IMG/VR virus record: IMGVR_UViG_3300045988_167643
From: a virus
Length of the DNA stretch: 64,000 nucleotides
Strand: one strand, 5' to 3'
A model generated the notes under the pieces. The model searched no databases. It had not been told where the DNA came from and worked only from the letters and a program-made list of their open reading frames with translations. The translations under genes and the position numbers were made by a program. How positions within the stretch are numbered: position 1 is the first letter of the stretch; each line of letters starts with the position of its first letter. Positions 4,576-46,329 of this stretch are shown here, piece by piece.

Positions 4576-4669
4576 GTTGAATTTCTGGAATAAGTGATAA
4601 TGAAAAATGGAAGTAGTAATTGTGAGGTGATGATAGATATGATTGATCGAGATTTAAATAAAAACGTTG

Positions 4670-4968
4670 TTTATTACAAAATGTAAATTAATAGGTATAC
4701 AAAACCAATTACCAGATTATCATAAATACCTACTGTTTTGTAACCATGTAAATTAAGAGGTATACAAAACCAGATCCCCTTACACGACTGACACGGCGTT
4801 GTTTTGTAGTCATGTAAATTAAGAGGTATACAAAAATATGGATGGACGATCACAAGTCCTACAGAAGTTTTGTAACCATGTAAATTAAGAGGTATACAAA
4901 ACCAAACGAAAAACTCAAAGTTGATACCAAATGTTTTGTAACCATATAAATTAAGAGGCATACAAAAC
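4670..4968. CRISPR. CRISPR mini-array, 5 repeats / 4 spacers
   Basis: 36-nt repeats at 4670-4705, 4735-4770, 4801-4836, 4867-4902 and 4933-4968. Consensus is GTTTTGTAACCATGTAAATTAAGAGGTATACAAAAC. Copies 2 and 4 are identical; copy 3 has 3 changes, copy 5 has 2, and copy 1 is degenerate in its first 11 nt. Unique spacers are 29, 30, 30 and 30 nt. Confidence 0.9.
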
Positions 4969-5212
4969 CTCAAAGTATAGTTTTATACCTCTTATTTTAA
5001 GGCACTTCTATGAAATAGACTAAGAGAAATCTACGTTATAAAAAGATAATATGTTATGGTGTCGCTCTAGCTGTAATTATATCGTTTGTACCTAAACATA
5101 CACTGTGCCGAACATGATTGGTGTAAGTGATACAAACATGTAACTTTTTATAACATTGTCGAAGAGCATGACCAATTTTAAATTGAGATTATATTATAAA
5201 GGAAATAAAAAT
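4969..5212 (+). ncRNA. putative tracrRNA / omega-RNA-like scaffold with anti-repeat
   Basis: ORF-free interval between the last repeat and the iscB-like start. 4980-5002 (GTTTTATACCTCTTATTTTAAGG) is complementary to the 3' two-thirds of the + strand repeat. Position and length match omega-RNA/tracrRNA loci. Ends and strand are not determined. Confidence 0.5.
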
Positions 5213-6952
5213 ATGAATTATATGGATTTTGTATTAATTGTGGATAAAAATAGTAAACCATGTATACCAATAAAAAATGGTAAAGCAGGTTATTTATTAA
5301 GAGAACATAAAGCAGAAATTATAAATCACGAGCCATTAGTTATCAAAAGAACTGATGATTATAATTCGGATTTAGAAAATAGAGATATATTTGAATTAAA
5401 AGTAGATAGTGGATATTTAAATATCGGATTTTCTGTAAGCGATAATGAGCATGAATATATTGCAGGTCAAGTTGAAATGCTAAACGGAATGAGTAATAGA
5501 TTGTTAGAAAGAAAATCTATGCGTAGTTTCAGAAGAAATCGTTTACGTTATAGAAAAAATAAGAACATTGATTATAAAACAGTACATAATCCTACTTATA
5601 AAAATGGAAATGAAGATGGATGGTTTGCACCGTCTATTGTACATAAAATGGAAACGCATATCAGAATCATTGAGCAATTAAAACAATGGGTTCCAATCGA
5701 TAAAGTTATTGTAGAGGTGGCAAATTTTGACATTGCTGCAATGGATGCATATTTAAAGGACGGAACTATTTTAAATGGAAAAGATTATCAAAATGGTGAA
5801 ATGAAAGGATATGAGAATGTTGTATCTTATGTAAGAGCCAGAGATAATTATTCTTGTTACTTTTGCAATAAGAAAAAGAAAAAAGATGGTACACTAAAAG
5901 AGAAACCAAAAAGAATAGAAGTGCACCATAAAATACCAAGATCCTGGGGTGGTACTAATAATCCAGGAAATTTGATTTGCGTATGTCAAGGATGTCATCA
6001 GAAAATACATTCGAATAATAATAACAACAAATATTTTAAAGAATTATTAGAACAAGCTTTACAAGAAAATACATTTAAAGATTCTACATATATGAATATT
6101 GTTAGATGGGAATTATTAAACAGACTTACTGAAAAATATCCAGAGCTTGATATTGAAGCTGAATATGGTTATAACACAAAAATTAATAGAAAAGAAGCAG
6201 GTTTGAGAAAATTCCATTATAATGATGCAGTTTGTATAAAAGAATTTAAGAATATAACTTTATCTAAAAAAGTATTTATTGTCGAACAAAAACGTTGTAA
6301 TGATAGAAAAATGGAAAGTTTTGCAGATGCAAAATATATAGATTCAAGAGATGGTAAAAAGAAAAAAGGAAATGATCTAAAAGTAATTAGGCATAGTACT
6401 AAATCAAAACGCTCTACAAATAAAGAACATATTGATAATGAAAGAATCTTTAGAAAAGAGAAAGTATCTAAGGGTAAAATACAATTTGAGTGTCATTCAT
6501 ATTGCGTAAAACCAGGAGATTTAATATACATAAAAGAAGGTAAACATAAAGGGAAAATTGCAGAAGTTTCTACAATACAGATTGTAGGCGAAAAAATTCC
6601 TAATCCGATAATTGATATTAATGAGATAAATAATAAAAAAATTGATTTCAACAGAGAGTTGAAAAAAAGAAAAACAACTTCTAATATGACTGATTATCAA
6701 AAACGTTTTGCAAAATATCAAATTAGATTTACATATAAAGAATCTGATGCAGATGGACCATCTATAACGCTTACGCAAAAAGAATATGAAAAGCTTAAAG
6801 AGAATAAATCAGATAGAGTAAAAATTATTCGTACCAGACGTGGATTAGTTTGGAGAGAGTACGACAGACTTACATATGAAGCCGAAAATATGGATCAGGA
6901 AGAAAAGAAATTAGAAGTAAAAAATAAGAAACAAGAATTAAAAGCTGCATAA
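5213..6952 (+). CDS. iscB: IscB-type RNA-guided nuclease (PLMP-RuvC-bridge helix-HNH-RuvC, no REC lobe), CRISPR-associated
   Basis: 579 aa from ATG 5213 (track ORF opens at TTG 5156). Motifs: PLMP-like DFVLIVDKNSKPCIPIKNGKAGYLL; RuvC-I LKVDSGYLNIGF; bridge helix RSFRRNRLRYRKNK; RuvC-II VIVEVANFD; HNH CYFCNKK...EVHHKIPRSWGGTNNPGNLICVCQGCHQKIH; RuvC-III KFHYNDAVCI. Confidence 0.8.
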   Translation: MNYMDFVLIVDKNSKPCIPIKNGKAGYLLREHKAEIINHEPLVIKRTDDYNSDLENRDIFELKVDSGYLNIGFSVSDNEHEYIAGQVEMLNGMSNRLLERKSMRSFRRNRLRYRKNKNIDYKTVHNPTYKNGNEDGWFAPSIVHKMETHIRIIEQLKQWVPIDKVIVEVANFDIAAMDAYLKDGTILNGKDYQNGEMKGYENVVSYVRARDNYSCYFCNKKKKKDGTLKEKPKRIEVHHKIPRSWGGTNNPGNLICVCQGCHQKIHSNNNNNKYFKELLEQALQENTFKDSTYMNIVRWELLNRLTEKYPELDIEAEYGYNTKINRKEAGLRKFHYNDAVCIKEFKNITLSKKVFIVEQKRCNDRKMESFADAKYIDSRDGKKKKGNDLKVIRHSTKSKRSTNKEHIDNERIFRKEKVSKGKIQFECHSYCVKPGDLIYIKEGKHKGKIAEVSTIQIVGEKIPNPIIDINEINNKKIDFNRELKKRKTTSNMTDYQKRFAKYQIRFTYKESDADGPSITLTQKEYEKLKENKSDRVKIIRTRRGLVWREYDRLTYEAENMDQEEKKLEVKNKKQELKAA

Positions 6953-12428: not shown

Positions 12429-13526
12429 ATGAAAGACATTAAGATTGTGGCTGGAGCAAACTGGGGAGACGAAGGAAAAGGACTAATGACTGATTACTTT
12501 TCACAGAAACCTAATAGTATTGTAGTATGTTCTAATGGTGGAAGTCAAAGAGGACATACTGTGGTAACACCGGACGGAATCAGACATGTCTTTCATCATT
12601 TTGGTTCTGGAACTTTTAATGGTGCTGCTACATATTTACCAAAAGAATTTATTGTAAATCCACTTATTTTTGCTCAAGAATATAAAGAACTGATAAATAA
12701 GAGAATTATTCCTAATATTTATGTTCATGGAGATTGTATGGTTTCGACTCCGTATGATATGATGGCAAACCAGGTCATCGAAGAGAGTCGTGGAAAACAA
12801 AAGCATGGTAGTTGTGGATTTGGAATTTTTGAAACCATTAAGAGATATAAAAATGGTATAACCGATTTTGATAAAGCAAAGGACTATTATCTTGAAAAAT
12901 TTGAACGAGATAAAATTCTACTATCAGACGACTGGAAAAGAATATTTAATGATCCAGGAATAAATGATCATTTTATAGAAGATTTGGATTTTATGAATGA
13001 TCACATTAAATCAATTAGAGATGAAAGCTTTCTAAATATGTTTGACCATATTATTTTTGAAGCTGCTCAAGGACTACTACTCGATCAGAATAATCTAAAA
13101 TATTTCCCATATCTTACACCATCTAATACAGGTCTGAAAAATCCTAAAAAAATTATTGAAAGAATTGATTGGTATGATGAATTAAATATAGAAGTATGTT
13201 ATGTGACACGTACATATTTAACGAGACATGGTGTCGGTCCGTTTCCAACAGAGTGTGATAAAGACGAAATTAATTCTGAAATGCACGATAATACAAATGT
13301 ACCTAATCCTCATCAGGATACTTTACGTTACGGAAAGTTAGATTTAAATGAGTTATATCAAAGAGTGATGGAAGATGTTGGAAATTTTAAATGTAAAAAA
13401 TCTATTGCCATTACACACTGTAATGAATTTAGAATGGATGAAGATAAGTTTGAGAAGTTATTTTTAGGATGGAATATTTATAAATCAGATGGTGAAACAC
13501 ATAATAGCATAAAGGAGACAAAATAA
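12429..13526 (+). CDS. adenylosuccinate synthetase (PurA)-family enzyme, divergent, PurZ-like candidate
   Basis: Blocks AGANWGDEGKGLMTDY, NGGSQRGHTV, FEAAQGLLLDQ, YLTPSNT and TRHGVGPFPTE align with PurA signature blocks. 365 aa, shorter than bacterial PurA. The TTGRxRR Asp-binding loop is not recognisable. Confidence 0.65.
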   Translation: MKDIKIVAGANWGDEGKGLMTDYFSQKPNSIVVCSNGGSQRGHTVVTPDGIRHVFHHFGSGTFNGAATYLPKEFIVNPLIFAQEYKELINKRIIPNIYVHGDCMVSTPYDMMANQVIEESRGKQKHGSCGFGIFETIKRYKNGITDFDKAKDYYLEKFERDKILLSDDWKRIFNDPGINDHFIEDLDFMNDHIKSIRDESFLNMFDHIIFEAAQGLLLDQNNLKYFPYLTPSNTGLKNPKKIIERIDWYDELNIEVCYVTRTYLTRHGVGPFPTECDKDEINSEMHDNTNVPNPHQDTLRYGKLDLNELYQRVMEDVGNFKCKKSIAITHCNEFRMDEDKFEKLFLGWNIYKSDGETHNSIKETK

Positions 13527-19522: not shown

Positions 19523-21721
19523 ATGAGAACTTTATTATTATTTCGTGGTGCACCAGGAGTTGGTAAGAGCACTTATATTGAGAAAAATGGTTTAAAGCCA
19601 TATACATTATGTGCAGATGATATTCGTTTACTTTGTCAGAGTCCGGTATTATCTGTAAATGGTAGTACAGAAATTACACAGAATAATGATGGCACTGTTT
19701 GGAAAACGTTATTTACTCTACTAGAGGTTAGAATGCAGCGTGGAGAATTTACAGTTATAGATGCAACTAATTCCAAGACTTCTGAAATGAACAAATATAA
19801 GAAATTATGTCAGGAATATAGGTACAGAATTTTTCTTGTTGATTTTACAGATGTTTCAATCGAGGAATGTAAGAAAAGAAATAGTCTTCGTGCCGCAATG
19901 AAACAGGTTCCTGAAGCTGTTATTGATAAGATGTACAGTAGATTTAAAACACAGGGGATTCCATCCGGTATTACAGTAATTAAGCCGGAAGAACTTGATA
20001 AAGTGTTTATGAAAAAAATTGATTTGTCCGAATATAAAGCGATTCATCACGTAGGAGATATACATGGTTGTAATACAGCTTTACAGAAATATTTGAACGC
20101 AATTAGCGGAATCAAGGACGATCACTTCTTTATATTTTGCGGAGACTATATTGATAGAGGAATTGAAAATGCGGAAGTGGTTCAGTTTCTCTTAAGCATT
20201 AAGGACAAACCAAACGTACTTTTGCTTGAGGGCAATCACGAAATTCATCTAAGAAAATATAGTGAAGATAAGAAGTCATTCTCAAAAGAATTTGAATTAT
20301 TTACAAAACCTGCATTAGATAAAGCCGGTTTTAGTAAGAAAGATCTGCGGCAGCTGTGTAGAAAATTTGCTCAGTGTGCCTATTATACATATCATGGAAA
20401 TACATATCTTGTTACTCACGGTGGTCTGAATACAATCCCACAAAATCTTACTTTTGTTGCAACCGATCAAATGATTCATGGAGTTGGTAGATATAATGAT
20501 GTAGAGCAAGTTGCTGATACATTTTTCACCACTACCGATGATCATACTTATCAGATTTTTGGTCATAGAAATACTAAAGGATTTGACATTAATGTTAATC
20601 CAAGAGTATACGATCTTGAAGGACAGGTTGAGTTTGGTGGCTGTCTGAGATGTATTGATATCGTTCCTGGTGGAAGTATAACCTATGAGGTTAAGAACAA
20701 TGTATTCAGAGAGCCAGAAAAATCAGCAAGAACTATGAGTAATAATGTATCTGATGCACTTATTGAACTGAGACATAATAAATATGTCACTGAAAAACAA
20801 TTTGGAAATATTTCTTCTTTCAACTTTAGTCCAACAGCTTTTCAAAAAAATATATGGGACGAGCAGACAACTAAGGCAAGAGGTTTGTTCTTAGATACTG
20901 AAAAATTTAAAGTTGTGGCAAGGTCCTACGACAAATTTTTCAATATAAATCAGCGTGAAGAAACTAAACTTGATGCTCTGCAGCGTACATTAGAGTTTCC
21001 AGTAGCTGCCTATGTTAAAGAAAATGGATTTCTTGGAATTGTTTCCTGGAATGAGTATACAGATGATTTGTTTATTACAAGTAAATCTGATCCTGAAGGA
21101 CCATTTTCCGAATGGCTAAGAGATATGGTTTATACGAAAATTTCTAAAGAGAATCTTGAGAAGATGAAGAAGTATATTGAAGAGAACGATGTTTCTTTTG
21201 TATTTGAGTGCTGCGACATGGAGCATGATCCACATATTATTGATTATCCAGAAAGTAAGTTGGTTTTGCTTGATATTGTATACAATACTTTGGATTTCCA
21301 GAAATATAACTATGAGGATATGGCTCATGTTGGTCGTGATCTTGGGCTAACAATCAAGAAACAGGCTTATGAGTTATCTACATGGCAGGAATTTTATGAT
21401 TGGTATTTTGAAGTTTTAGAAGAAGATTATGAATACAGAGGTGATAAGATCGAAGGATTTGTAATCGAAGATGCTAATGGATATATGGTTAAGCTGAAAC
21501 TTACATATTATAACTTCTGGAAGTTTATGCGTGGTATTGCTCATGAGACTTTAAAGAAAGGTTGTACAAACAGGACATCATTGTTGACTACGCCGGTAGC
21601 GAATGAATTTTACGCTTGGTGCAAGAAACAGTTTGAAAATGGTAAAGCTGATGAGCTGCCAAGAGATATTGTTACTTTAAGAAAAATGTTTTATGAGGAG
21701 AAAGAGAATAATGTGGATTAG
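19523..21721 (+). CDS. trifunctional RNA repair enzyme: polynucleotide kinase / metallophosphatase / RNA ligase-like (bacterial Pnkp architecture)
   Basis: P-loop LFRGAPGVGKST. Calcineurin-type blocks HHVGDIHGC, GDYIDRG, EGNHE, THGG and GHRN. Ligase motif I VKENGFLG (KxNG) and motifs IV/V EGFVIED...VKLK. Confidence 0.7.
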   Translation: MRTLLLFRGAPGVGKSTYIEKNGLKPYTLCADDIRLLCQSPVLSVNGSTEITQNNDGTVWKTLFTLLEVRMQRGEFTVIDATNSKTSEMNKYKKLCQEYRYRIFLVDFTDVSIEECKKRNSLRAAMKQVPEAVIDKMYSRFKTQGIPSGITVIKPEELDKVFMKKIDLSEYKAIHHVGDIHGCNTALQKYLNAISGIKDDHFFIFCGDYIDRGIENAEVVQFLLSIKDKPNVLLLEGNHEIHLRKYSEDKKSFSKEFELFTKPALDKAGFSKKDLRQLCRKFAQCAYYTYHGNTYLVTHGGLNTIPQNLTFVATDQMIHGVGRYNDVEQVADTFFTTTDDHTYQIFGHRNTKGFDINVNPRVYDLEGQVEFGGCLRCIDIVPGGSITYEVKNNVFREPEKSARTMSNNVSDALIELRHNKYVTEKQFGNISSFNFSPTAFQKNIWDEQTTKARGLFLDTEKFKVVARSYDKFFNINQREETKLDALQRTLEFPVAAYVKENGFLGIVSWNEYTDDLFITSKSDPEGPFSEWLRDMVYTKISKENLEKMKKYIEENDVSFVFECCDMEHDPHIIDYPESKLVLLDIVYNTLDFQKYNYEDMAHVGRDLGLTIKKQAYELSTWQEFYDWYFEVLEEDYEYRGDKIEGFVIEDANGYMVKLKLTYYNFWKFMRGIAHETLKKGCTNRTSLLTTPVANEFYAWCKKQFENGKADELPRDIVTLRKMFYEEKENNVD

Positions 21722-22288: not shown

Positions 22289-22482
22289 AGGCGACTCCTT
22301 TCAAACATAGCAAATTAACAAGTTACTAGCTAATATTTTACGCAGGAGCTGATCCGCCTTAACATCTAGCGGTTCCAATAGGTGATTTTAGATTTTGCCA
22401 GTCCCTTGGGTATGTATTGGATACCCAAACACCTTAGCAGGTATTGTACCACATATTTACCATATATTTCAAGGAGAAACTA

Positions 22483-23040
22483 ATGTCAAAGGATAGTACG
22501 TTTTCAAATACTAATAAAAAAATTTTCTTTTTAGGAGATGATATAGACAACGATTCTATAGGAAAACTAACTTGGAATCTTTTACATCAGATACTAGATG
22601 ATGATGAGAAAGATAAAAAGGAAAAGGATTATAAAAGAGACCCTATTAAACTTTATATAAATTCTTATGGCGGAAGTGTATATGATATGTGGGGCTTAAT
22701 TGATGTTATCCAAAATAGTAAAACACCAATTTATACATATTGTACCGGTTATGCTATGAGTGCGGCGTTTCAAATATTTCTTACTGGACATAAAAGATAT
22801 TGTTATAAACATTCCACATTTATGTACCATCAGCTAAGTCATGCTTTTGAAGGAAAATTTCAGGACCTTGTTGAAGATATGGAAGAGGTTAGTAGACAAA
22901 ATAAGATGATTGAAGATTATGTTTTAAGCAAAACAAAATTAACAAAAGATGATCTTAGGAACATTAAAGAAAAGAAAATTGATTTCTTTATTTCATCAGA
23001 TAAGGCAATTGAATATGAAATTGTAGACGAAATTTTATAA
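22483..23040 (+). CDS. clpP: ClpP-family serine protease
   Basis: INSYGGSVYDMWGLIDVI, CTGYAMSAAFQIFLTG (Ser), FMYHQ (His) and C-terminal IDFFISSDKAIEYEIVDEI blocks. Confidence 0.7.
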   Translation: MSKDSTFSNTNKKIFFLGDDIDNDSIGKLTWNLLHQILDDDEKDKKEKDYKRDPIKLYINSYGGSVYDMWGLIDVIQNSKTPIYTYCTGYAMSAAFQIFLTGHKRYCYKHSTFMYHQLSHAFEGKFQDLVEDMEEVSRQNKMIEDYVLSKTKLTKDDLRNIKEKKIDFFISSDKAIEYEIVDEIL

Positions 23041-25715: not shown

Positions 25716-25789
25716 GAGTATTTTAGAAATATATAAAAAATAAGGAGTAGTGAGATTTGCTGCAGCGATAAAATCATGGTTTGCTCCGT

Positions 25790-26572
25790 ATGAAAATGTT
25801 AGAAATAAATAAAATTTATAATGAAGATTGCCTTATTGGATTAAAAAAACTTGACTCAGACATAGTTGATCTTACAGTAACAAGCCCGCCATATGATGAT
25901 TTGAGAAAATATAATGGATATTCATTTGATTTTGATGCAATTTCTTATGAGTTATTCCGTGTAACTAAACCAGGTGGTGTTTTGGTTTGGGTTGTTGGAG
26001 ATAAGACTAAGAATGGATCTGAAACAGGGACCTCGTTTAAACAGGCGTTACAGTTTATGAAAGTTGGATTTAAGTTGCATGATACTATGATTTTTGAAAA
26101 AACCAATCCAATTCCGCAAAATCATAATCGTTACGAGCAATGTTTTGAGTATATGTTTGTATTTAGTAAGGGTAAGCCAAGTACATTTAATCCAATAAAG
26201 GTTCCAACTAAAAATGCCGGAAAAGTGTTTAATTGGGGAGATAGAAAAACTGTTATGGATGATAATCAATGTCGTAGGGACAGGACGACAGATTTATACA
26301 CAGTAAAGTCAGAAAAGATACATAATAATATATTTACGTATAGTATTGGTGGTGGAAAATCAGGGCATCCTGCTGTATTTCCAGAACAATTGGCGAAAGA
26401 TCATATTTTATCATGGTCAAATCCTGGTGATTTAATTCTTGATCCGTTTATTGGAAGCGGAACTACTGCAAAAGCTGCCATTGAGCTTGATAGAAATTAT
26501 ATTGGATTCGAGATTAGTAAAGAATATTGTGATATTGCAGAAGAAAGATTAAGAGGAAGTGAAAAGGTATGA
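25790..26572 (+). CDS. DNA methyltransferase, N6-adenine/N4-cytosine (beta class)
   Basis: Motif IV DLTVTSPPYDD precedes motif I DPFIGSGTTAKAA; no cognate endonuclease recognised. Confidence 0.8.
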   Translation: MKMLEINKIYNEDCLIGLKKLDSDIVDLTVTSPPYDDLRKYNGYSFDFDAISYELFRVTKPGGVLVWVVGDKTKNGSETGTSFKQALQFMKVGFKLHDTMIFEKTNPIPQNHNRYEQCFEYMFVFSKGKPSTFNPIKVPTKNAGKVFNWGDRKTVMDDNQCRRDRTTDLYTVKSEKIHNNIFTYSIGGGKSGHPAVFPEQLAKDHILSWSNPGDLILDPFIGSGTTAKAAIELDRNYIGFEISKEYCDIAEERLRGSEKV

Positions 26573-26853
26573 CAATTAAATCAATGAATCATTTTCAGAA
26601 TGTATGTAAGAACAAATTTGTAGAATGGTATAACAAAAGCAGTTATGCCAATAAAGGACCAAATGACATCCAGGAAATTGGTGTCGATGACGTATTTGTA
26701 AGTTGGTTGTGTAAGACTCCGCAGAACTATAAATGTATTATAGGTACTAGTGCTGCAGCCATCTTAGCAGAATATACGTACAATGGTAATGATGGAGTCT
26801 TATACGAAGGTATTTATAAGAAGATTGTGAATACAAGTCATTCAGTAGAGTAA
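26569..26853 (+). CDS. hypothetical protein
   Basis: 94 aa; ATGA overlap with the methyltransferase. Confidence 0.5.
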   Translation: MTIKSMNHFQNVCKNKFVEWYNKSSYANKGPNDIQEIGVDDVFVSWLCKTPQNYKCIIGTSAAAILAEYTYNGNDGVLYEGIYKKIVNTSHSVE

Positions 26854-26925
26854 CAATAGAATCTGGATTTTATCTGGATTAAAAGATCTGGAAAATTAGA
26901 AGTAAGCAATATCAAACAATAAAGG

Positions 26926-27810
26926 ATGGAAAATAAAATGCAGATTACAGCGAAAAGCTATTTTAGTGGTGCAGGTGGAATGGATCTTGGAATTGAAGAA
27001 GCAGGGATCAATATTCTTGAATCATACGAAATTGATAAGAAATGTTGTGATACGTTAAGAAAAAATTTTAAGCACAAGGTTAACGAAGCTGATATTACTA
27101 AAATTACAGTTCTTGATCAGCAAGATGCAGATGTGTATATTGGAACTTTTCCATGTACAAAATACTCGATTGCTGCAGATATTAATGGTACAAGAACCGG
27201 TGATGATTTATTTCTTCATTTCTTTAGGCATATTGCATTGGCACAACCAGAAATGTATATAGTTGAGAATGTTCCTGGGATGATTAAGTTTAAAGTAGTT
27301 ATGGAGGCGTTGACTAAATTGCCAGATTATTATGTAAGAATTGAATGTCCTGTGAACGCAAATATGTGGCTTCCACAAGAACGTAAGAGATTAATTCTTA
27401 TTGGTAGTAAAAAGCCGTTAACTAATCTTGATTATCCAGATGAAACTCCATTACGACTGAAAGATATTATTCAAACAGATAGTGAAATAAATATTCCGCA
27501 GTATGTGTTAAATCGTATTAATGGTAATTACAGAGATAAACCAATTGTTTCTGATCCTGAATGTGATGATCTTGCACCAACATGTGTAGCACACTATTCA
27601 AAAGATAGAGGAACTAGATTAATTAAAGACGGTAATAGAATCCGACCATATACAGTCAGAGAGTATGCAAGACTACAGGGTTTTCCAGATTGGTTTGAAT
27701 TTTGTGGAAGTGATAGTGATGCTTATAGACAGATTGGTAATGCTGTTGCCGTTCCAATGGGACGCTGGGTTGGAAGTCAGATTGTAAAATATTTTAATGG
27801 AGCGAGGTAA
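26926..27810 (+). CDS. dcm: DNA (cytosine-5)-methyltransferase
   Basis: Motif I FSGAGGMDLG, motif IV GTFPCTKYS, motif VI VENVPG, QERKR, motif X RQIGNAVAVPM. Confidence 0.85.
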   Translation: MENKMQITAKSYFSGAGGMDLGIEEAGINILESYEIDKKCCDTLRKNFKHKVNEADITKITVLDQQDADVYIGTFPCTKYSIAADINGTRTGDDLFLHFFRHIALAQPEMYIVENVPGMIKFKVVMEALTKLPDYYVRIECPVNANMWLPQERKRLILIGSKKPLTNLDYPDETPLRLKDIIQTDSEINIPQYVLNRINGNYRDKPIVSDPECDDLAPTCVAHYSKDRGTRLIKDGNRIRPYTVREYARLQGFPDWFEFCGSDSDAYRQIGNAVAVPMGRWVGSQIVKYFNGAR

Positions 27811-38555: not shown

Positions 38556-40604
38556 ATGAAGATGTATGATCCGGAAATCTGGAAAAATGAGAACAATGGA
38601 TATGAGGAACTTATTGAAAACATTAAGAAAACTTTTGCATCAAAATTGAAAGACAATGTAAAAACACCATTATTCAGAACAAGCGTATCTGACTTATTTG
38701 ACACATTTCTTTACTATCTTCCAGATGCTTGCAAACAGGAATATACATGTAGAGCTTGTAAACACTTTGTAGATCGATTTGGTGGACTTGTATTTATTAA
38801 AGAAGATGGAACAACTGAGTCTGCTATTTGGAATGTTGAAAATATTCCTGGAATGTTTATTGAGCCAATTACACAGATGAAAGAGATTGTTGAATCTGCA
38901 CAGGTCCAGGATATATTCGTATCAGACTATGTGGATCTTGGAACATATGATACTAATGGATTCCATCATTTTTCTGTAAAACTTCCAAGAGTAATGATCA
39001 ATACATCAAGAGTAAAAAATGCATCACAGGTATCTGCTGAGAAAGCTGAAGATTATGGAATGCTGAAAAGAGCACTTGAGAAGTATTCCATGCCACAGAT
39101 TGATCAGGCACTTAATTTATTAGAATCCGGAAGTTTATATAGAGGTAGCAGCTATGTAGCAATGTGCAAATGGTTTAAGGAAACAAAAGAGAAGATTGCT
39201 TCTATCAATGATCAGCCACAGCACACTAATATGATTTGGAAATATGCTGCTACAGCTCCAAATGGATTTACTCACATTTCCGGAAGTATGTTAGGTACAT
39301 TACTTGACTATATTGTAGATGGTGATGACTTTGATACTATCAAGCGTAAATTTGAGACTAATATGAGTGCCGAGAATTATAGACGTTCACAGTCTGCACC
39401 TACTCAGAGAGCTGTTGAAAGTGCTGAAAAACTTATTGAAAAACTTGGTCTTGCAGATTCACTTAGAAGAAGATATGCAAAACTGGATGAGCTTCCTGAG
39501 AATGAATTTATTTGGAAGAGTAAAACTGAAAAGAAAGATGAAGTAAAGACTGGAGTATTTGCAGGAGTTCAGACTAAAGCTGTAGATAGTAATGAAACAA
39601 AATCTGTAATTCCACAGGTAACTATGACATGGGATAAATTCGGAAAAACAATTCTTCCTACCGCAGATAAATTGGAAGTAAAGGTTGATGGAACAACTCA
39701 TCTTATGGGAATGGTAACAGCTGCGGTTCCGGAATCTGAAAATATTATGAACTGGGATAATCCATTTTCTTGGTATTATCAGAGTGGTATTGATTCTGTG
39801 ATTCGTGAGCGACTTGAAGCAAAAGGTGCAAAATATGAAGGTTGTGAGATCAGATGCTCTCTAATCTGGAATACACGAACAGATTTAGATTTGCATTGTA
39901 TTTGTCCTGATGGAGTAGAAATTTATTTTGGACATAAGAATCACGGATATGGTTCATTGGATGTTGATGCAAATGTTCATGGTGAGACAGTAACACCTGT
40001 TGAGAACATTCGTTGGCCACTTGGTAAAGTTCCAGAAGGACGTTATAAATTCTTTGTTAATAACTATACAAATAGAGCAACCCAGAATCCATATAAATTA
40101 GAGCTTGAAGTAAATGGAAAAATTTATACTTATGATGGAAATCTTATAAGTGATAGTTGTAGAAAAAATACAGACGTAGTATTTGAATTTGATTATTGTC
40201 ATGGCGAAGATCCTAAGTTTACTGCAAATTCTAAAAAGACAGAAACTAAAGAAACTTGGGGAATTAGCAACGGATTCTCAGAAGTTGTTGCAATTATTCC
40301 GTCTCCAAACATGTGGGGAGAAAATCCATATAAACGATCTGGTGAACATACTTTCTTCTTATTGAAAGACTGCAAAGATATGACAGGCGGAGTTGGACGT
40401 GGTTTCTTTACTGAAATGCTTAAGGGTGATTTACAGGAAATTAGAAAAACACTTGAGGCATATACAGCTTCAACACCTATTGAAGGTGAAGATGAAGCAA
40501 GTGCTTGTGGTGTTGGCTACAGTAAAGATAAAGAGTGGAATCTGATTGTAAAAGTGACTACCGGCAACATTGTAAAAATGATTAAGATTGATAGGTTTGA
40601 CTGA
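38556..40604 (+). CDS. large hypothetical protein (682 aa)
   Basis: AAGGAG RBS; N-terminal CxxC; beta-rich segment LIWNTRTDLDLHCICPDGVEIYF...LDVDANV; family not recognised. Confidence 0.65.
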   Translation: MKMYDPEIWKNENNGYEELIENIKKTFASKLKDNVKTPLFRTSVSDLFDTFLYYLPDACKQEYTCRACKHFVDRFGGLVFIKEDGTTESAIWNVENIPGMFIEPITQMKEIVESAQVQDIFVSDYVDLGTYDTNGFHHFSVKLPRVMINTSRVKNASQVSAEKAEDYGMLKRALEKYSMPQIDQALNLLESGSLYRGSSYVAMCKWFKETKEKIASINDQPQHTNMIWKYAATAPNGFTHISGSMLGTLLDYIVDGDDFDTIKRKFETNMSAENYRRSQSAPTQRAVESAEKLIEKLGLADSLRRRYAKLDELPENEFIWKSKTEKKDEVKTGVFAGVQTKAVDSNETKSVIPQVTMTWDKFGKTILPTADKLEVKVDGTTHLMGMVTAAVPESENIMNWDNPFSWYYQSGIDSVIRERLEAKGAKYEGCEIRCSLIWNTRTDLDLHCICPDGVEIYFGHKNHGYGSLDVDANVHGETVTPVENIRWPLGKVPEGRYKFFVNNYTNRATQNPYKLELEVNGKIYTYDGNLISDSCRKNTDVVFEFDYCHGEDPKFTANSKKTETKETWGISNGFSEVVAIIPSPNMWGENPYKRSGEHTFFLLKDCKDMTGGVGRGFFTEMLKGDLQEIRKTLEAYTASTPIEGEDEASACGVGYSKDKEWNLIVKVTTGNIVKMIKIDRFD

Positions 40605-40605
40605 T

Positions 40606-41640
40606 ATGAACATTGAAGAGATTAAGAAAAAAGTAGCTGGTCCGGACTATGATTTTCTGAGAAACAATGAACACCTTGGCTCCAACATTATTTTGTTGGG
40701 GTTAGGTGGAAGCTATAGCTATGGTACTCAAAAATCTGACGGAACGAGCGATTTGGATTTGAGGGGAATTTGCTTAAATAAAAAGCATGAAATTCTTACT
40801 AACCAGAATTTTGAACAATTTATCAACGAAGATACAGATACAACTATTTATGCGTTTAATAAGATTATTTATCTTATGGCAGCTTGCAACCCTAATGTTA
40901 TTGAGCTAGGAGGGCTTAAACCAGAACATTATTTATATATTCATCCAATTGGACAAGAAATATTAGATAATGCACATATGTTTTTATCTAAAAGGGCAAT
41001 TCATTCATTTGGTGGTTATGCCTCGCAACAATTAAGAAGAACAAATAACAAGGCAGCTCGTTTAGTAGGACAAACAGAGCGTGAACAACATATTTTAAAT
41101 TCGATAAACAATGCATTTTATACTTTTCCTACAAAATATTTTACATTTCCGGATGATTCTATAAAACTATATGTAGATAAGGCGGTTCAAGAAGACTATG
41201 ATACCGAAGTATTTATGGATATTAATCTAAAGCATTATCCGTTACGTGACTATAAATCTATGTGGTCCGAAATGAATAATATTGTTAAAGATTACTCGAA
41301 AATTGGTAAGCGTAATAAACATGCGGTAGAGCATGGAAAATTAGGTAAGCACATGATGCATTTGGTTCGCCTGTACTATATGTGTTTTGATATTTTGGAA
41401 AATGAGAAGATTATTACATACAGAGAAAAAGAACATTATTTGTTGATGGACATTAGAAATGGTAAATATTTAGATGAAAACAAACAGCCAATTCCAGAAT
41501 TCTTTGAGATGGTAAATGAGTTGGAAAAGAGACTGGAATATGATGCAGAAAACACATCACTTCCAGACAGTCCGGATTATAAAAGAATCAATGAGTTTGT
41601 TATGTCTGTAAACGAAAGAATTGTGAAAGGAGAAATTTAA
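40606..41640 (+). CDS. Pol-beta-superfamily nucleotidyltransferase (RlaP-like)
   Basis: LGLGGSYSYGTQKSDGTSDLDLRGI matches the GS...G...SD.D.RG nucleotidyltransferase motif of the RNA-repair-associated RlaP family (from memory). Confidence 0.5.
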   Translation: MNIEEIKKKVAGPDYDFLRNNEHLGSNIILLGLGGSYSYGTQKSDGTSDLDLRGICLNKKHEILTNQNFEQFINEDTDTTIYAFNKIIYLMAACNPNVIELGGLKPEHYLYIHPIGQEILDNAHMFLSKRAIHSFGGYASQQLRRTNNKAARLVGQTEREQHILNSINNAFYTFPTKYFTFPDDSIKLYVDKAVQEDYDTEVFMDINLKHYPLRDYKSMWSEMNNIVKDYSKIGKRNKHAVEHGKLGKHMMHLVRLYYMCFDILENEKIITYREKEHYLLMDIRNGKYLDENKQPIPEFFEMVNELEKRLEYDAENTSLPDSPDYKRINEFVMSVNERIVKGEI

Positions 41641-44270: not shown

Positions 44271-44278
44271 GAAAGTAT

Positions 44279-44467
44279 ATGGTTAAAAGAGATAAAGAGT
44301 ACAAGAAAATTGAAAATATAACCTTGTGTTGTTACGCCGTAGGGCTGGGGCTTGCATGTGCAACAAAGTTTCTGCCATTTATCCTTTTAACTGTTATGGC
44401 ATATCCTATTTCATTTCGAGTAGTAGATAATAAATGGAGTGGTAAAAATGCCACTCCTAGAAAATAA
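44279..44467 (+). CDS. small membrane protein
   Basis: 62 aa; [29 protein letters not shown]. Confidence 0.45.
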
Positions 44468-44481
44468 AAGGAGAAAATATT

Positions 44482-45048
44482 ATGGTAAGTTTAGTAAAAG
44501 GACAGAAAGTAGATCTTACAAAAGGAAACGCAGGATTAAAGCAGATTATCGTTGGTTTGGGATGGGATGCAAATAAGTACGATGGTGATAATTTTGATCT
44601 GGATTCGGCAGCATTTCTTCTTGGAACAAATGGAAAAGTAAGAAATTCAGATGATTTCGTATATTATAACAATCTCAAACATTCAAGTTGTGCAGTTCAG
44701 CATATGGGTGACAATCTTACTGGTTTAGGCAATGGAGACGATGAGCAGATTATCGTTGATTTGACAAAGATTCCGGCTGATGTTGAAAAAATTGCATTTA
44801 CAGTAACTATCTATATGGCAGAAGAGAGACTGCAGAACTTCGGTATGGTTTCCAATTCATACATTAGAATGGTAAACAAAGACAATGATGAAGAGATGAT
44901 CCGCTACGACCTGGGAGAAGATTATTCCACAGAAACAGCAATGGTTCTTGGCGAACTGTATCGCCACAACGGAGAATGGAAATTCAATGCTATTGGACAG
45001 GGATATTCCGGTGGTTTACAGGCACTTTGCAGTAGTTTTGGAGTTTAA
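44482..45048 (+). CDS. terD: TerD-domain protein
   Basis: [57 protein letters not shown]. Confidence 0.85.
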
Positions 45049-45066
45049 TGTAGGAGGAAATAAATA

Positions 45067-45720: not shown

Positions 45721-45750
45721 CGAAGGAAATAATGAAGGAGATAAAGTGAT

Positions 45751-46329
45751 ATGTCAGTAAGTCTTAAAAAGGGAGATAAAGTTGCACTGTCAAAGGACAG
45801 TATTGTAAATAGAATTTCCGTTTGCCTTGGTTGGGACACAGCAAAGTATGATGATGATGGAGATTTTGATTTGGATGCTTCTGCATTTGTTGTTACCAAA
45901 GCTGGTATAACAAGATCTGATAATGATTTTGTATTTTACAATAACCTGAAACATCCGAGTGGTGGAGTAATCCATAGCGGAGATAATTTAACAGGCTTTG
46001 GAGAGGGTGATGATGAAGTCATCAAAGTGGATCTTGAAAAACTTCCAAAATATGCGGACAGAGTAGTATTTTGTGTGACCATTTTTGAGGCAGAACGCCG
46101 TATGCAGAATTTTGGCATGGTGGAAAACTCATATATCCGTATTGTAGATGATGTAACTGGAAACGAAATTATGAGATACGATCTCAAAGAGAAGTTCGGA
46201 AATTCTACAGCTATCATTGCTGGTGAAATTTATCGTGATGAATCAAAATGGAAGTTTCATGCAGTAGGAGAAGGACGGGATGGCGGTCTTTTAGAACTGT
46301 GCAAAGAATTTGAAGTAGAGGTAGAATAA
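45751..46329 (+). CDS. terD: TerD-domain protein
   Basis: VCLGWD, DFDLDASAFVV, HSGDNLTGFGEGDDEVI, NFGMVENSYIRI, SKWKFHAVGEG. Confidence 0.85.
   Translation: MSVSLKKGDKVALSKDSIVNRISVCLGWDTAKYDDDGDFDLDASAFVVTKAGITRSDNDFVFYNNLKHPSGGVIHSGDNLTGFGEGDDEVIKVDLEKLPKYADRVVFCVTIFEAERRMQNFGMVENSYIRIVDDVTGNEIMRYDLKEKFGNSTAIIAGEIYRDESKWKFHAVGEGRDGGLLELCKEFEVEVE

What the first reader, a model, noticed from the sequence alone, without database searches (positions are those of the whole stretch)
4670..6952. Phage-encoded REC-less IscB-type nuclease sitting directly behind its own CRISPR mini-array
The 579-aa ORF (5213-6952) shows the full IscB domain order by eye:
- PLMP-like N-terminus (DFVLIVDKNSKPCIPIKNGKAGYLL).
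- RuvC-I Asp (LKVDSGYLNIGF).
- Arg-rich bridge helix (RSFRRNRLRYRKNK), followed directly by GWFAPSIVHK...VIVEVANFD (RuvC-II) with no REC insertion.
- Intact HNH (EVHHKIP...NLICVCQGCHQKIH).
- RuvC-III (KFHYNDAVCI).

About 245 nt upstream lies a 5-repeat/4-spacer array of 36-nt GTTTT...AAAAC repeats in type II style. No cas1, cas2, cas4, csn2 or tnpA-like ORF is visible anywhere in the 64 kb.

IscB is normally guided by a single omega-RNA inside IS200/IS605 elements. CRISPR-linked IscBs have been described only as rare, sporadic cases, viewed as snapshots of the IscB-to-Cas9 transition. One in the accessory region of a phage would be a compact, multiplexed RNA-guided nuclease. It is plausibly used against host defence islands, plasmids or competing phages.
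Basis: partly seen in the sequence, partly recalled or inferred. Interest (0 to 1): 0.9.

Follow-up and report, generated by a model that had tools for sequence, protein, structure and literature searches.

The report
Phage IscB nuclease with CRISPR array
A large phage of gut Clostridia-type bacteria carries a miniature Cas9-ancestor nuclease (IscB) whose guide RNA has been split into a small CRISPR array plus a tracrRNA-like scaffold, and in related phages the same module holds spacers that match rival phages, so it looks like a compact, multi-guide weapon used in phage-versus-phage conflict.

Summary
Window 4669-4968 holds five 36-nt repeats and four 29-30-nt spacers. The 579-aa ORF at 5213-6952 is a catalytically intact, REC-less IscB (Pfam RRXRR 3e-32; OgeuIscB fold, E 9e-24). 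Across 19 lineages, 27 of 55 base pairs covary, including the repeat:anti-repeat helix. This is not a one-off. All 28 IMG/VR viral loci whose IscB is at least 48% identical carry the module with 1-8 repeats, while about 50 more distant viral IscBs lack it (one exception). No cas1, cas2, cas4, csn2 or tnpA is present in the window. The repeats resemble type II-A repeats of Clostridia/Christensenellaceae MAGs. The conserved CTCAAA after the last repeat is the reverse complement of the II-A leader-end motif ATTTGAG, and arrays degenerate at the opposite end. This suggests host Cas1-Cas2 adds spacers in trans (inferred). Spacers of relatives match small temperate phages and a sibling phage's strain-specific island (25-27 of 30-31 nt). 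No target was found for the window's own spacers. Verdict: new variant of a known kind (CRISPR-associated IscB); interest about 0.7.

The parts
4669..4968 (+). CRISPR mini-array with five 36-nt repeats and four spacers. Repeats: 4669/70-4705 (degenerate), 4735-4770, 4801-4836, 4867-4902, 4933-4968. Spacers: 4706-4734, 4771-4800, 4837-4866, 4903-4932.
   Evidence: The same architecture occurs in 27 related viral loci. Spacers 2 and 3 have GC 0.57 and 0.43, against 0.32 for the window.
4969..4974 (+). Conserved CTCAAA motif immediately after the last repeat. Its reverse complement, TTTGAG followed by GTTTT, reproduces the type II-A leader-repeat junction (ATTTGAG/GTTT). It may be a leader-anchoring-type site, or alternatively an RNA-level element in the loop between the last repeat and the anti-repeat.
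   Evidence: Present after the last repeat in 26 of 28 clade loci despite divergent flanks. Host II-A loci L009 and L012 have ...ATTTGAG|GTTTTAGAA. The motif's role in II-A adaptation is described in PMC5382924.
4976..4999 (+). Anti-repeat (upper-stem strand), complementary to repeat positions about 15-36.
   Evidence: I1, I4, I5: 19-24 nt arms, 83-89% complementary. Cofold. Five of 7 core pairs show compensatory changes across lineages.
5009..5016 (+). Lower-stem strand (UAUGAAAU), which pairs with repeat positions 1-8 (GUUUUGUA). It lies immediately 5' of the conserved AGACUAAG core.
   Evidence: Cofold. Pairs 1-5 are invariant and position 6 covaries, A-U in 13 sequences and G-C in 3.
4976..5187 (+). 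tracrRNA-like omega (HEARO-type) scaffold RNA. The Rfam HEARO match covers 4981-5172, the pseudoknot arms are 5018-5022 and 5156-5160, and the terminal hairpin is 5173-5185.
   Evidence: 56.4 bits, E 1.9e-10, model positions 1-211 of 211, gathering score 83. Relatives score similarly. Covariation: 93.4% of cells paired versus 37-43% in slid controls, and 27 pairs with changes on both sides versus 3-8.
5199..5203 (+). Ribosome-binding site AAGGA.
   Evidence: Read from the sequence. An A/G-rich stretch lies in the same place in relatives.
5213..6952 (+). IscB-type RNA-guided nuclease, 579 aa, with PLMP-like N-terminus, RuvC-I, Arg-rich bridge helix, RuvC-II, HNH, RuvC-III and a C-terminal TAM-interaction-type region. 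The C-terminal region has a clade-specific extension, and the window's sub-lineage has a further ~48-aa insertion.
   Evidence: (phrog_119, 1e-52).

Best explanation
This is a phage-encoded, adaptation-module-free CRISPR-IscB system.

Shown:
- The nuclease is a catalytically intact IscB without a REC lobe.
- The omega-RNA that normally carries one fixed guide has its first helix (P1) split. One strand of P1 is the CRISPR repeat. The other strand is the 5' anti-repeat of a HEARO-type scaffold encoded between the array and the gene.
- The duplex has a Cas9-like layout: lower stem (repeat 1-8), internal loop, upper stem (repeat 15-36).

Inferred mechanism:
- The + strand is transcribed through the array and the scaffold.
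- The last repeat folds in cis onto the anti-repeat. This gives a natural single-guide RNA whose guide is the last spacer.
- Upstream spacer-repeat units pair in trans with further scaffold molecules and are probably cut by host RNase III, as in type II systems.
- Each IscB-guide complex then binds DNA complementary to its spacer next to a still unknown target-adjacent motif (TAM). It cleaves that DNA with the HNH and RuvC sites.

Biological role (shown for relatives, inferred for this window): destroying or excluding competing phages that share the host. Relatives' spacers match small temperate phages and a sibling phage's strain-specific island.

Origin of spacers (inferred): the host's type II-A Cas1-Cas2(-Csn2) acts in trans on a leader-end mimic next to the last repeat. 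New spacers therefore enter at the scaffold-proximal end.
For: Protein identity.

RNA:
- HEARO match at E 1.9e-10 over the full model and similar matches in relatives.
- Anti-repeat found, and cofolds give lower stem, loop and upper stem.
- RNAalifold finds 25 of 43 pairs with compensatory changes.
- My structure, which adds the lower stem and pseudoknot, has 93.4% of cells paired versus 37-43% in slid controls, and 27 pairs changed on both sides versus 3-8.

Conservation:
- 28 of 28 loci with at least 48% identical IscB have the module with 1-8 repeats, ending 228-287 nt before the ATG.
- 50 of 51 more distant viral IscBs have no array.
- L016 has a single repeat plus anti-repeat, which is the plain omega-RNA layout.

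Spacers are real acquisitions:
- Spacer content differs between phages whose IscB is 98-100% identical, except for the spacer next to the degenerate repeat.
- Spacers 2 and 3 are more GC-rich than the window.
- Two arrays hold pairs of spacers that are homologous coding variants.

Targets in relatives:
- L030_sp2 matches 27/30 (22 of them exact and contiguous), L040_sp2 27/31 and L035_sp2 21/30, all on the 36-kb integrase-bearing phage L100.
- L026_sp1 (27/30) and L020_sp1 (25/30) hit a 68-aa ORF inside a 1.4-kb island that only sibling phage L025 carries.

No adaptation or transposase genes in the window.

Host link:
- Similar repeats occur only in Clostridia, Christensenellaceae and Oscillospiraceae MAGs. 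Two of these loci have Cas9, Cas1, Cas2, Csn2 and an ATTTGAG leader end.
- The function of the ATTTGAG motif in adaptation is reported in PMC5382924.
- Repeat degeneracy increases toward the scaffold-distal end in nearly all arrays.
Against: - There are no expression or processing data. Promoter and terminator scans were uninformative.
- The HEARO score of 56.4 bits is below Rfam's gathering score of 83.
- No protospacer was found for the window's spacers in INPHARED phages, PLSDB plasmids, IMG/VR or JGI metagenomes. Spacer 1 was tested only in the first two collections. The role of this particular array is therefore extrapolated from relatives.
- The best family protospacers carry 3-5 mismatches, none is perfect, and their flanks give no shared TAM.
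- In the window, repeats 3 and 5 carry substitutions, and repeat 5 has a C-A mismatch in the upper stem. This could mean relaxed selection.
- The leader-like motif lies on the opposite strand and at the opposite end compared with type II-A arrays. Canonical II-A spacer orientation would then put the host PAM on the wrong side for a 3' TAM.
- One sibling pair (L023 and L027) shares a scaffold-proximal spacer. This fits the proposed polarity only if internal spacers were deleted.
Confidence: 0.75

Rival explanations
1. Repeat mimic or decoy. The array and anti-repeat mainly act against the host's type II-A Cas9, either as an RNA anti-CRISPR that soaks up Cas9 or tracrRNA, or as a way to hijack host Cas9 with phage-chosen guides. 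On this view they do not mainly guide the phage IscB.
For: - Phage repeats are same-sense and up to 29/36 identical to II-A repeats of candidate host MAGs.
- Positions 1-14 of the phage repeat closely resemble the part of a II-A repeat that pairs with tracrRNA.
- Phage-borne repeat mimics that inhibit Cas proteins have been described (from my own knowledge, not checked here).
Against: - The anti-repeat covaries with the phage repeat, not with a host sequence, and it is physically fused to an IscB-type scaffold with conserved structure.
- The array is found only with this IscB clade and at a fixed distance from the gene.
- Spacers turn over and match rival phages. A pure decoy would not need this.
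- No host genome in GTDB carries the window's exact repeat.
Confidence: 0.08
2. Ordinary selfish IscB element. The gene and RNA are an IS200/IS605-type or homing-type OMEGA module that happens to sit in a phage. The guides would serve the element's own retention or spread rather than conflict between phages.
For: - IscB is typically transposon-borne. About 16% of HEARO/IscB contigs are viral or prophage-derived and were reported as not CRISPR-associated (PMC9755519).
- The locus lies in a mosaic, hypervariable region.
Against: - No Y1 transposase is present anywhere in the window.
- The locus is syntenic in the close lineage.
- Multiple spacers differ between near-identical phages.
- Spacers match foreign phage genes rather than the element's own flanks.
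Confidence: 0.05
3. Decaying relic. The module was functional in an ancestor, but in this phage it is drifting and no longer used.
For: - Repeats 1, 3 and 5 of the window carry 8, 3 and 2 substitutions.
- No targets were found for the window's spacers.
- Three independent sequencing runs carry the same terminal spacer, so no turnover is visible among them.
Against: - All catalytic and zinc-binding residues are intact and invariant.
- The ORF is uninterrupted and 98-100% conserved across samples.
- The scaffold RNA is identical or nearly so in L001-L003 and keeps its pairing.
- Sister phages with a 98-100% identical protein have different spacers.
Confidence: 0.07
4. Spacers enter by recombination, not integration. 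This is a rival only for the acquisition step. Arrays would gain spacers by homologous recombination with host type II-A arrays or with other phages' arrays through the similar repeats, and not through Cas1-Cas2 acting on the CTCAAA junction. CTCAAA would then be conserved for an RNA-level reason, for example as the loop of the P1 hairpin or by pairing with the invariant GAG after the terminal hairpin.
For: - The repeats are same-sense relative to host II-A repeats, so recombination would preserve guide orientation and any PAM/TAM side.
- Two L040 spacers from the same site share their 3' end.
- UUGAG at 5183-5187 is complementary to CUCAA at 4969-4973 (read).
- The L027/L028 variant has GCCAAAG but still keeps an array.
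Against: - Best repeat identity to any genome in GTDB is 29/36, which is poor for homologous recombination.
- The array polarity is the mirror image of host arrays: the degenerate repeat is at the 5' end and the leader-like motif at the 3' end. Phage arrays are therefore not simple copies of host arrays.
- The junction TTTGAG|GTTTT matches the II-A leader-repeat junction exactly.
Confidence: 0.3

Closest known systems
CRISPR-associated IscB, e.g. DelIscB (first reported by Altae-Tran et al. 2021; characterised in PMC12660989)
   Same: - An IscB without a REC lobe.
- A guide RNA encoded upstream of the ORF that contains repeats, spacers and an anti-repeat fused to an omega-type scaffold.
- No adaptation genes nearby.
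   Different: - DelIscB has 457 aa, comes from an aquatic metagenome, is used with 16-nt guides and has TAM NAC. Whether its RNA is processed into crRNA and tracrRNA is stated to be unknown.
- The protein here has 579 aa (513-579 across the clade) with a C-terminal extension, and its spacers are 28-31 nt.
- The module here sits on large phage genomes and is conserved through a whole clade.
- The repeats and leader-end motif resemble host type II-A systems, and natural targets can be traced in relatives.
- I could not obtain the DelIscB sequence, so the phylogenetic relation between the two is untested.
Canonical transposon-borne IscB with omega RNA (OgeuIscB; Rfam HEARO RF02033)
   Same: - Same fold and domain order (Foldseek E 9e-24).
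- Same RNA core: pseudoknot, long-range helix and internal hairpins.
- Guide 5' of the scaffold, RNA encoded directly upstream of the ORF.
- L016 even retains the one-guide layout.
   Different: - The first helix is split into a repeat and an anti-repeat and is multiplied into an array.
- No IS200/IS605 TnpA is present.
- The guides are diverse foreign sequences.
Type II-D CRISPR-Cas9 (Cas9d, e.g. YnpsCas9 9k31, 9lgi)
   Same: A small RuvC-HNH effector with an array and a long structured tracrRNA, often without adaptation genes (PMC9755519).
   Different: - Cas9d proteins have a REC lobe and are about 650-780 aa.
- Similarity to the protein here is weak (phmmer 5e-6, Foldseek 1e-9 to 6e-7), compared with 1e-21 to 1e-24 for IscBs.
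Type II-A CRISPR-Cas of Clostridia/Christensenellaceae (loci L009, L012)
   Same: - Repeat family GTTTTAGA...AAAAC, 36 nt, with about 30-nt spacers.
- The leader-end junction sequence ATTTGAG|GTTTT.
- A lower-stem/bulge/upper-stem repeat:anti-repeat layout.
   Different: - The effector is an IscB, not a Cas9.
- There is no cas1, cas2 or csn2.
- The leader-like motif is on the other strand, at the 3' (scaffold-proximal) end of the array.
Phage-encoded CRISPR-Cas systems and virus-borne mini-arrays (Vibrio phage ICP1 type I-F, Cas-phi and Cas-lambda of huge phages, archaeal virus mini-arrays), and plasmid type IV-A3 systems that acquire spacers in trans (bioRxiv 10.1101/2023.06.23.546257)
   Same: - A mobile element carries a compact effector and a short array.
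- It usually lacks adaptation genes, and its spacers target competing mobile elements.
- Dependence on host Cas1-Cas2 has been proposed or shown.

Mostly from my own knowledge. The IV-A3 title and abstract were seen.
   Different: - The effector family here is IscB. The library searches I ran found no description of a phage clade with CRISPR-linked IscB.
- Goltsman et al. describe viral HEARO/IscB as not CRISPR-associated.
- Al-Shayeb et al. 2022 mention phage 'Cas9-like' proteins, as far as I recall. That paper is not in the library, so an overlap cannot be excluded.

Membership tests
IscB (OMEGA RuvC-HNH nuclease; Pfam RRXRR PF14239) | Split RuvC domain (motifs I, II, III) with an inserted HNH domain and an Arg-rich bridge helix, with catalytic residues present | tested here: met
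   PF14239 at 3e-32 over its full length and HNH at 2e-7. D65, E168, H238/H239, N253, H335/D338 and the zinc-binding cysteines are invariant in 43 sequences. IscB structures are the top sequence hits and fold hits.
IscB (OMEGA RuvC-HNH nuclease; Pfam RRXRR PF14239) | [quoted passage not shown] | tested here: met
   Residues 4-60 align to the N-terminal domain of HfmIscB and other IscBs. The N-terminus is modelled at pLDDT above 90. Only about 55 residues separate the bridge helix from E168, as in OgeuIscB.
IscB (OMEGA RuvC-HNH nuclease; Pfam RRXRR PF14239) | A cognate omega (HEARO) RNA encoded immediately upstream on the same strand | tested here: met
   RF02033 matches 4981-5172 at E 1.9e-10 over the whole model. 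Structure is supported by covariation.
IscB (OMEGA RuvC-HNH nuclease; Pfam RRXRR PF14239) | Residence in an IS200/IS605-type transposon with TnpA (typical of the family, not universal) | tested here: not met
   No Y1 transposase domain was found in the scanned + strand ORFs of the window at E <= 1e-4. The locus is syntenic in close relatives.
Rfam HEARO RNA (RF02033) | Score at or above the curated gathering threshold (83 bits) | tested here: not met
   56.4 bits, and 53.6-56.4 bits in relatives. The first helix of the model is replaced here by the intermolecular repeat:anti-repeat duplex, which costs score. The remaining helices and the pseudoknot are conserved and covary. I therefore treat this RNA as a divergent relative of HEARO, not a curated member.
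CRISPR-Cas type II (Cas9 systems) | CRISPR array of direct repeats with unique spacers next to the effector gene | tested here: met
   Spacers differ between near-identical phages.
CRISPR-Cas type II (Cas9 systems) | tracrRNA with an anti-repeat that pairs with the repeat | tested here: met
   This is shown at the sequence and covariation level only. Expression and RNase III processing were not tested.
CRISPR-Cas type II (Cas9 systems) | Cas9 effector with a REC lobe | tested here: not met
   There is no REC insertion. Similarity to Cas9s is much weaker than to IscBs.
CRISPR-Cas type II (Cas9 systems) | Adaptation module (cas1, cas2, with or without csn2 or cas4) in the locus | tested here: not met
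   None in the scanned + strand ORFs of the 64-kb window.
Functional RNA-guided DNA nuclease (activity) | Spacer-dependent, TAM-dependent DNA cleavage, with crRNA bound by the protein | not testable with these tools
   This needs small-RNA sequencing, RNA co-purification and a TAM-depletion or cleavage assay.

The most novel reading that the evidence does not exclude
These phages have turned the IscB omega-RNA into an adaptive, host-serviced CRISPR locus. The repeat and a reverse-complement copy of the type II-A leader-anchoring motif (ATTTGAG) mimic the host's leader-repeat junction. The host's Cas1-Cas2-Csn2 would therefore insert new spacers in trans at the scaffold-proximal end of the phage array. 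Because that end abuts the anti-repeat, the newest spacer is automatically fused in cis to the scaffold as a natural single-guide RNA. The phage would thus borrow the host's immune memory machinery to arm a 0.5-kDa-per-residue-scale miniature nuclease (513-579 aa) against rival phages. The clade would also preserve every step from one-guide omega-RNA (L016) to an 8-repeat array. That makes it a living model of how a guide RNA becomes a CRISPR array, whether or not it lies on the actual lineage leading to Cas9.
Probability: 0.35. Interest if true: 0.85.

Novelty: new variant of a known kind. Interest (0 to 1): 0.72.

Why it matters
- It adds IscB to the effectors that phages use with CRISPR arrays. 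It does so as a conserved clade on 17-222-kb viral contigs, not as an oddity, and with traceable natural targets: rival temperate phages and a sibling phage's private island. This gives the OMEGA/IscB family a documented candidate role outside transposon maintenance.
- The clade spans 1 to 8 repeats on one homologous scaffold. The question of how a fixed-guide omega-RNA becomes a crRNA:tracrRNA pair with an array can therefore be tested by comparison and by experiment.
- The host-like repeat and the mirrored leader-end motif give a concrete, falsifiable hypothesis for acquisition in trans by type II-A machinery.
- Practically, it is a 513-579-aa RuvC-HNH nuclease with native multiplex guides, about 30-nt spacers and a naturally split guide. 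That is of interest as a compact editor if its TAM is permissive.

Tried and rejected
- Megablast of window 1-25000 against deposited phages found no match, so the phage cannot be named.
- All 25 spacers from the window and L001-L006 were searched against INPHARED phages and PLSDB plasmids with blastn at word size 11. Nothing was found.
- Exact cores of window spacers 2, 3 and 4 against IMG/VR, and of spacers 3 and 2 against JGI metagenomes, gave nothing.
- No window spacer matches the window itself, so self-targeting or self-regulation by the window's spacers is rejected.
- TAM inference from four family protospacers failed. The 3' flanks GCAAGCG, AAGAAGT, GAAAATG and TGTATCT and the 5' flanks show no common motif. 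The NAGAAG flank of the L040 target is a single case.
- The promoter and terminator scan around the array was no better than shuffled sequence.
- The hit of L015/L013 spacer 1 inside the iscB gene of L017 is only 18-21 of 30. I do not count it as a target.
- The hit of L038 spacers on L093 is 20-21 contiguous nt and then diverges (22/30). It is possibly a remote homolog and is not counted.
- Contigs carrying the identical protein all break inside repeat 4. I first read this as population heterogeneity. All three carry the same terminal spacer, however, and the break is explained by k-mer assembly at a repeat.
- Altae-Tran 2021 and Al-Shayeb 2022 could not be read. The DelIscB sequence is not held. 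Direct comparison with published CRISPR-associated IscBs was therefore not possible.
- A second structure job for the C-terminal extension was dropped. The extension is only about 40 residues beyond the array-less IscBs, plus a 48-aa lineage-specific insert.

Full report
**1. What is in the sequence**

Window 4669-4968 contains five direct repeats with a period of 65-66 nt. The consensus is GTTTTGTAACCATGTAAATTAAGAGGTATACAAAAC. The first copy (4669/70-4705) is degenerate with 8 mismatches. Copies 3 and 5 carry 3 and 2 substitutions. The four spacers (4706-4734, 4771-4800, 4837-4866, 4903-4932) are 29-30 nt long and unrelated to each other. Spacers 2 and 3 have GC contents of 0.57 and 0.43, against 0.32 for the window.

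The ORF at 5213-6952 encodes 579 aa. An AAGGA ribosome-binding site lies 9-10 nt upstream of the ATG, and homologs are 576-579 aa, so this start is the right one.

**2. The protein is an IscB**

- Pfam RRXRR (PF14239, the IscB family) matches over its full length at 3e-32, and HNH matches at 2e-7.
- The best solved relatives by sequence are HfmIscB (1e-24) and OgeuIscB and other IscBs (about 1e-21). The type II-D YnpsCas9 scores only 5e-6.
- In a 43-sequence family alignment these residues are invariant: D65, E168, H335/D338 (RuvC), H238/H239/N253 (HNH) and the zinc-binding cysteines.
- An AlphaFold2 model (pLDDT 75, pTM 0.63) finds OgeuIscB-omega RNA-DNA complexes first in the PDB (E 9e-24). 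IsrB and TbaIscB follow, and II-D Cas9s come only at 1e-9 to 6e-7.
- The C-terminal region is about 40 residues longer than in the ~450-aa viral IscBs. The window's sub-lineage has a further ~48-aa insert.

**3. The missing link: a tracrRNA-like omega RNA**

Immediately after the last repeat comes CTCAAA (4969-4974). Next is a 24-nt stretch (4976-4999) complementary to repeat positions 15-36. From 4981 to 5172 there is a full-length match to Rfam HEARO, the omega RNA of IscB, at 56.4 bits and E 1.9e-10. This is below the gathering score of 83.

At first the anti-repeat seemed to pair with the 'wrong', 3' half of the repeat. Cofolding resolved this. Repeat positions 1-8 pair with 5009-5016, directly 5' of the conserved AGACUAAG core. 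The duplex therefore consists of a lower stem, an internal loop and an upper stem, as in Cas9 crRNA:tracrRNA, and the guide sits exactly where an omega-RNA guide sits.

The structure is well supported across 19 distinct sequences from the clade (alignment A2):
- RNAalifold predicts 43 pairs, and 25 of them show compensatory changes.
- With the lower stem and the HEARO pseudoknot added (5018-5022 with 5156-5160), 93.4% of cells are paired, against 37-43% when partners are slid by 1-3 columns.
- In that structure, 27 pairs change on both sides, against 3-8 in the slid controls.
- Five of the 7 core repeat:anti-repeat pairs covary.
- The middle pair of the pseudoknot occurs as C-G, A-U and U-A.
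- Lower-stem position 6 switches between A-U and G-C.

**4. It is a clade, and it is viral**

All substantial ORFs of the window lie on the + strand. Many match phage protein families strongly, for example phrog_8238 at 3e-223. There are four tRNA genes.

Copies of the protein that are 98-100% identical lie on IMG/VR viral contigs of 88, 188 and 222 kb. Homologs at 55-57% identity lie on contigs of 102-175 kb. No virion gene falls inside the window, so 'phage' rests on these matches and on the IMG/VR classification.

A profile-based scan of IMG/VR returned 79 loci:
- All 28 loci with at least 48% identity carry the repeat/anti-repeat/scaffold module, ending 228-287 nt before the ATG. Twenty-seven have 2-8 repeats.
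- L016 has exactly one repeat followed by CTCAAAA and the anti-repeat. That is the plain single-guide omega-RNA layout.
- Of the 51 more distant viral IscBs (31-40% identity, shorter), none has an array except L051, whose repeat is unrelated.

Deposited phage genomes contain only the array-less relatives. The best is Clostridium phage c-st at 36% identity, annotated as 'HNH endonuclease'.

**5. No adaptation genes or transposase**

Pfam scans of nearly all + strand ORFs of the window found no Cas1, Cas2, Cas4, Csn2 or Y1 transposase domain at E <= 1e-4. Minus-strand ORFs were not scanned. The neighbours of the module are unrelated accessory genes. The locus is syntenic in L001-L003 but has mosaic flanks, and the flanks are unrelated in L004-L006.

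**6. Relation to host type II-A systems**

A degenerate consensus of the four repeat types was scanned against 185,579 GTDB species genomes. It hit only six contigs, all from Clostridia, Christensenella/Christensenellaceae or Oscillospiraceae MAGs.

Two of these are bona fide II-A loci. They carry the Cas9 PI domain, Cas1, Cas2 and Csn2. Their leaders end in ATTTGAG directly before repeats such as GTTTTAGAAGGATGTAATTTCAAATGGATATAAAAC. That repeat is 29/36 identical, in the same sense, to the L006/L040 phage repeat.

ATTTGAG is the group-1 II-A leader-end motif needed for adaptation, and the junction is conserved as GAG/GTTT (PMC5382924). The phage motif CTCAAA(T) after the last repeat is its exact reverse complement. 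Because the repeat termini are palindromic (GTTTTAGA...TCTAAAAC), the minus strand reads ATTTGAG|GTTTTAGA, which is identical to the host junction.

The motif is present in 26 of 28 clade loci even though the neighbouring repeat and anti-repeat sequences have diverged.

**7. Polarity and turnover**

In almost every array, repeat mismatches increase toward the scaffold-distal (5') end, for example 10,1,1,1,0 and 5,3,3,3,3,1,1,0 and 6,3,2,0,0,0.

The window and L002 have 100% identical proteins. They share only the spacer next to the degenerate repeat and differ in all the others. L001 and L003 behave the same way. This is the usual signature of growth at the other end of the array, here the end carrying the leader-like motif.

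One pair, L023 and L027, shares a scaffold-proximal spacer. This fits only if internal spacers were deleted in L027.

From this I infer, but have not shown, that host II-A Cas1-Cas2 adds spacers in trans. One problem is unresolved. With the leader mirrored, canonical II-A orientation would place the host PAM on the 5' side of the + strand guide, whereas IscB and Cas9 read a 3' motif. Recombination with other arrays, or an RNA-level role for CUCAAA, remain alternatives. Note that UUGAG at 5183-5187 is complementary to the motif.

**8. What the spacers target**

No target was found for the window's own spacers.

In relatives, two arrays contain pairs of spacers that are coding-sequence variants of one site. 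L040 sp2/sp3 encode K-M-W-F/Y-W-H-N/D-P, and L038 sp3/sp4 encode M-Y-P-A-D-E. A degenerate pattern for the L040 pair found 15 other viral contigs of 27-52 kb, mostly from the same metagenome. Identity over the whole spacer was 25-27 of 31, and the site lies in a 155-aa ORF of phrog_15863.

Independently, spacers of two other lineages hit one of those phages, L100. It is 36 kb and has an integrase and a DnaD-like initiator, so it is temperate. L030_sp2 matches 27/30, with 22 contiguous exact bases and the mismatches at wobble spacing. L035_sp2 matches an overlapping site at 21/30.

The clearest case concerns sibling phages. L026_sp1 (27/30) and L020_sp1 (25/30) both map inside a 68-aa ORF of a 1.4-kb insertion (L025:1178-2600). 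The insertion also carries a Sir2-like gene. It sits right upstream of L025's array and is absent from the siblings L020, L023, L026, L027 and L028. These spacers therefore match a rival at precisely the place where it differs from the spacer-bearing phage. None of these matches is perfect, and the flanks do not yet reveal a TAM.

**9. Mechanism**

Shown:
- An intact IscB.
- A structured HEARO-type scaffold whose first helix is formed between repeat and anti-repeat.
- An array with turnover.
- Spacers related to rival phages.

Inferred:
- The + strand is transcribed through the array and the scaffold.
- The last repeat folds in cis onto the anti-repeat, giving a natural single guide. Upstream units pair in trans, with RNase III-type processing.
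- DNA is cleaved in a TAM-dependent way by HNH and RuvC.
- The system serves to exclude competitor phages.
- The host's II-A machinery supplies spacers in trans.

**10. Comparison with what is known, and novelty**

The closest known system is the CRISPR-associated IscB of Altae-Tran et al. 2021, exemplified by DelIscB (457 aa, aquatic, 16-nt guides, TAM NAC). Whether its RNA is processed into two parts is explicitly described as unknown (PMC12660989).

Viral IscB/HEARO genes are known, but they were described as not CRISPR-associated (PMC9755519). Phage-encoded CRISPR-Cas systems that lack adaptation modules and target rival elements are known for other effector types.

My library searches found no description of a phage clade of CRISPR-linked IscBs, of its II-A-like repeat and leader mimicry, or of its natural targets. 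Two key papers could not be read, so prior mention cannot be excluded.

I file it as a new variant of a known kind. It is a member of the IscB family, since every structural criterion was met and only the transposon context was not. It works like a minimal type II CRISPR system without being a Cas9 system, since it has no REC lobe and no adaptation genes.

Interest is 0.72. The find is not categorically new. It does give IscB a likely biological role in conflict between phages, it offers a graded natural series from omega-RNA to array, and it yields a testable model of acquisition in trans.

Noticed in passing
L025:1178-2600 (IMGVR_UViG_3300045988_130106): A 1.4-kb strain-specific insertion lies directly upstream of the IscB array. 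It contains a 106-aa ORF, a 68-aa ORF and a Sir2-like gene (phrog_2162, 8e-46). Five sibling phages lack it, and spacers of two of those siblings match it. The array-adjacent position may be a hotspot for accessory or defence-type cargo.
   Followed up: partly
L016:2723-2790 (IMGVR_UViG_3300045988_147192): This clade member has a single repeat followed by CTCAAAA and the anti-repeat, with no spacer-repeat unit. It is either a collapsed array or the ancestral one-guide omega-RNA state. The sequence 5' of the repeat (…AATAGGTTGA) would be its only guide, and I did not search for a target of it.
   Followed up: partly
L051:2241-2685 (IMGVR_UViG_3300035208_002098, 248 kb): A distant viral IscB (33% identity) has an unrelated array of 5-7 copies of GTTGTAAATGGGTTTCAAAATAAGGTATTAAACAAC, about 316 nt upstream of the gene. 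This may be an independent CRISPR association of a phage IscB. I did not look for an anti-repeat or a HEARO match.
   Followed up: no
L011:1080-1270, minus strand (Oscillospiraceae MAG JAUNJJ010000335.1): A short contig has repeats of a similar type ending ...CTCTAAAAC, then CTCAAAA and an anti-repeat-like stretch (TCATGATATTACATAG). No recognisable HEARO core follows. It is unclear whether it belongs to an IscB, a Cas9 tracrRNA or something else.
   Followed up: no
window 12429-13526: This ORF matches adenylosuccinate synthetase (Pfam 1.6e-36). Its best PHROG is phrog_1211, the PurZ-type family of phages that replace adenine with 2-aminoadenine. If it is a true PurZ, the phage DNA may be base-modified, which would matter for self versus non-self discrimination by nucleases. 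PurZ and PurA were not distinguished here.
   Followed up: no
window 19523-21721, 40588-41640, 47487-48953, 57364-60572: The window holds an RNA-repair and tRNA toolkit. It includes a Pnkp-like kinase-phosphatase-ligase (phrog_8238, 3e-223), an RlaP-type nucleotidyltransferase, a CCA-adding enzyme and four tRNA genes (Gln x2, Met, Leu). This suggests a counter-defence against host anticodon nucleases.
   Followed up: no
window 41643-46329: A P-type cation ATPase (875 aa) is followed by three TerD-domain paralogs at 44482-45048, 45067-45720 and 45751-46329. This is unusual stress or tellurite-resistance-type cargo for a phage.
   Followed up: no
window 22444-23040, 25781-27810, 51747-52766, ~54241-56274: Further accessory genes are present: a ClpP-like protease, adjacent N6/N4 and C5 DNA methyltransferases, an SPFH/Band-7 protein, a microbial PARG-type domain and an AAA ATPase.
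   Followed up: no
L004:7761-7841 and L006:969-1350: In relatives, a 'skipping-rope' RNA (RF02924, 71 bits, above its gathering score) lies about 200 nt after the end of the iscB match in L004. A tmRNA gene (RF00023, 78.5 bits) lies upstream of the module in L006.
   Followed up: no
L038 spacers 3 and 4; L040 spacers 2 and 3: Neighbouring spacers within one array are diverged copies of the same coding site, with synonymous and conservative differences. This suggests repeated sampling of one conserved gene from variant rivals, or a hotspot defined by a flanking motif. Both L040 spacers share the same 3' end, next to AAGAAG in the targets.
   Followed up: partly
L110-L112 (Logan contigs from SRR32878187, SRR18845059, SRR21969624): The identical 579-aa protein occurs on 12 contigs. 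In three independent sequencing runs the contig ends inside repeat 4 and carries the window's terminal spacer. This array variant is therefore widespread, and short-read assemblies systematically break at it, so such arrays will be under-reported in contig-based surveys.
   Followed up: partly
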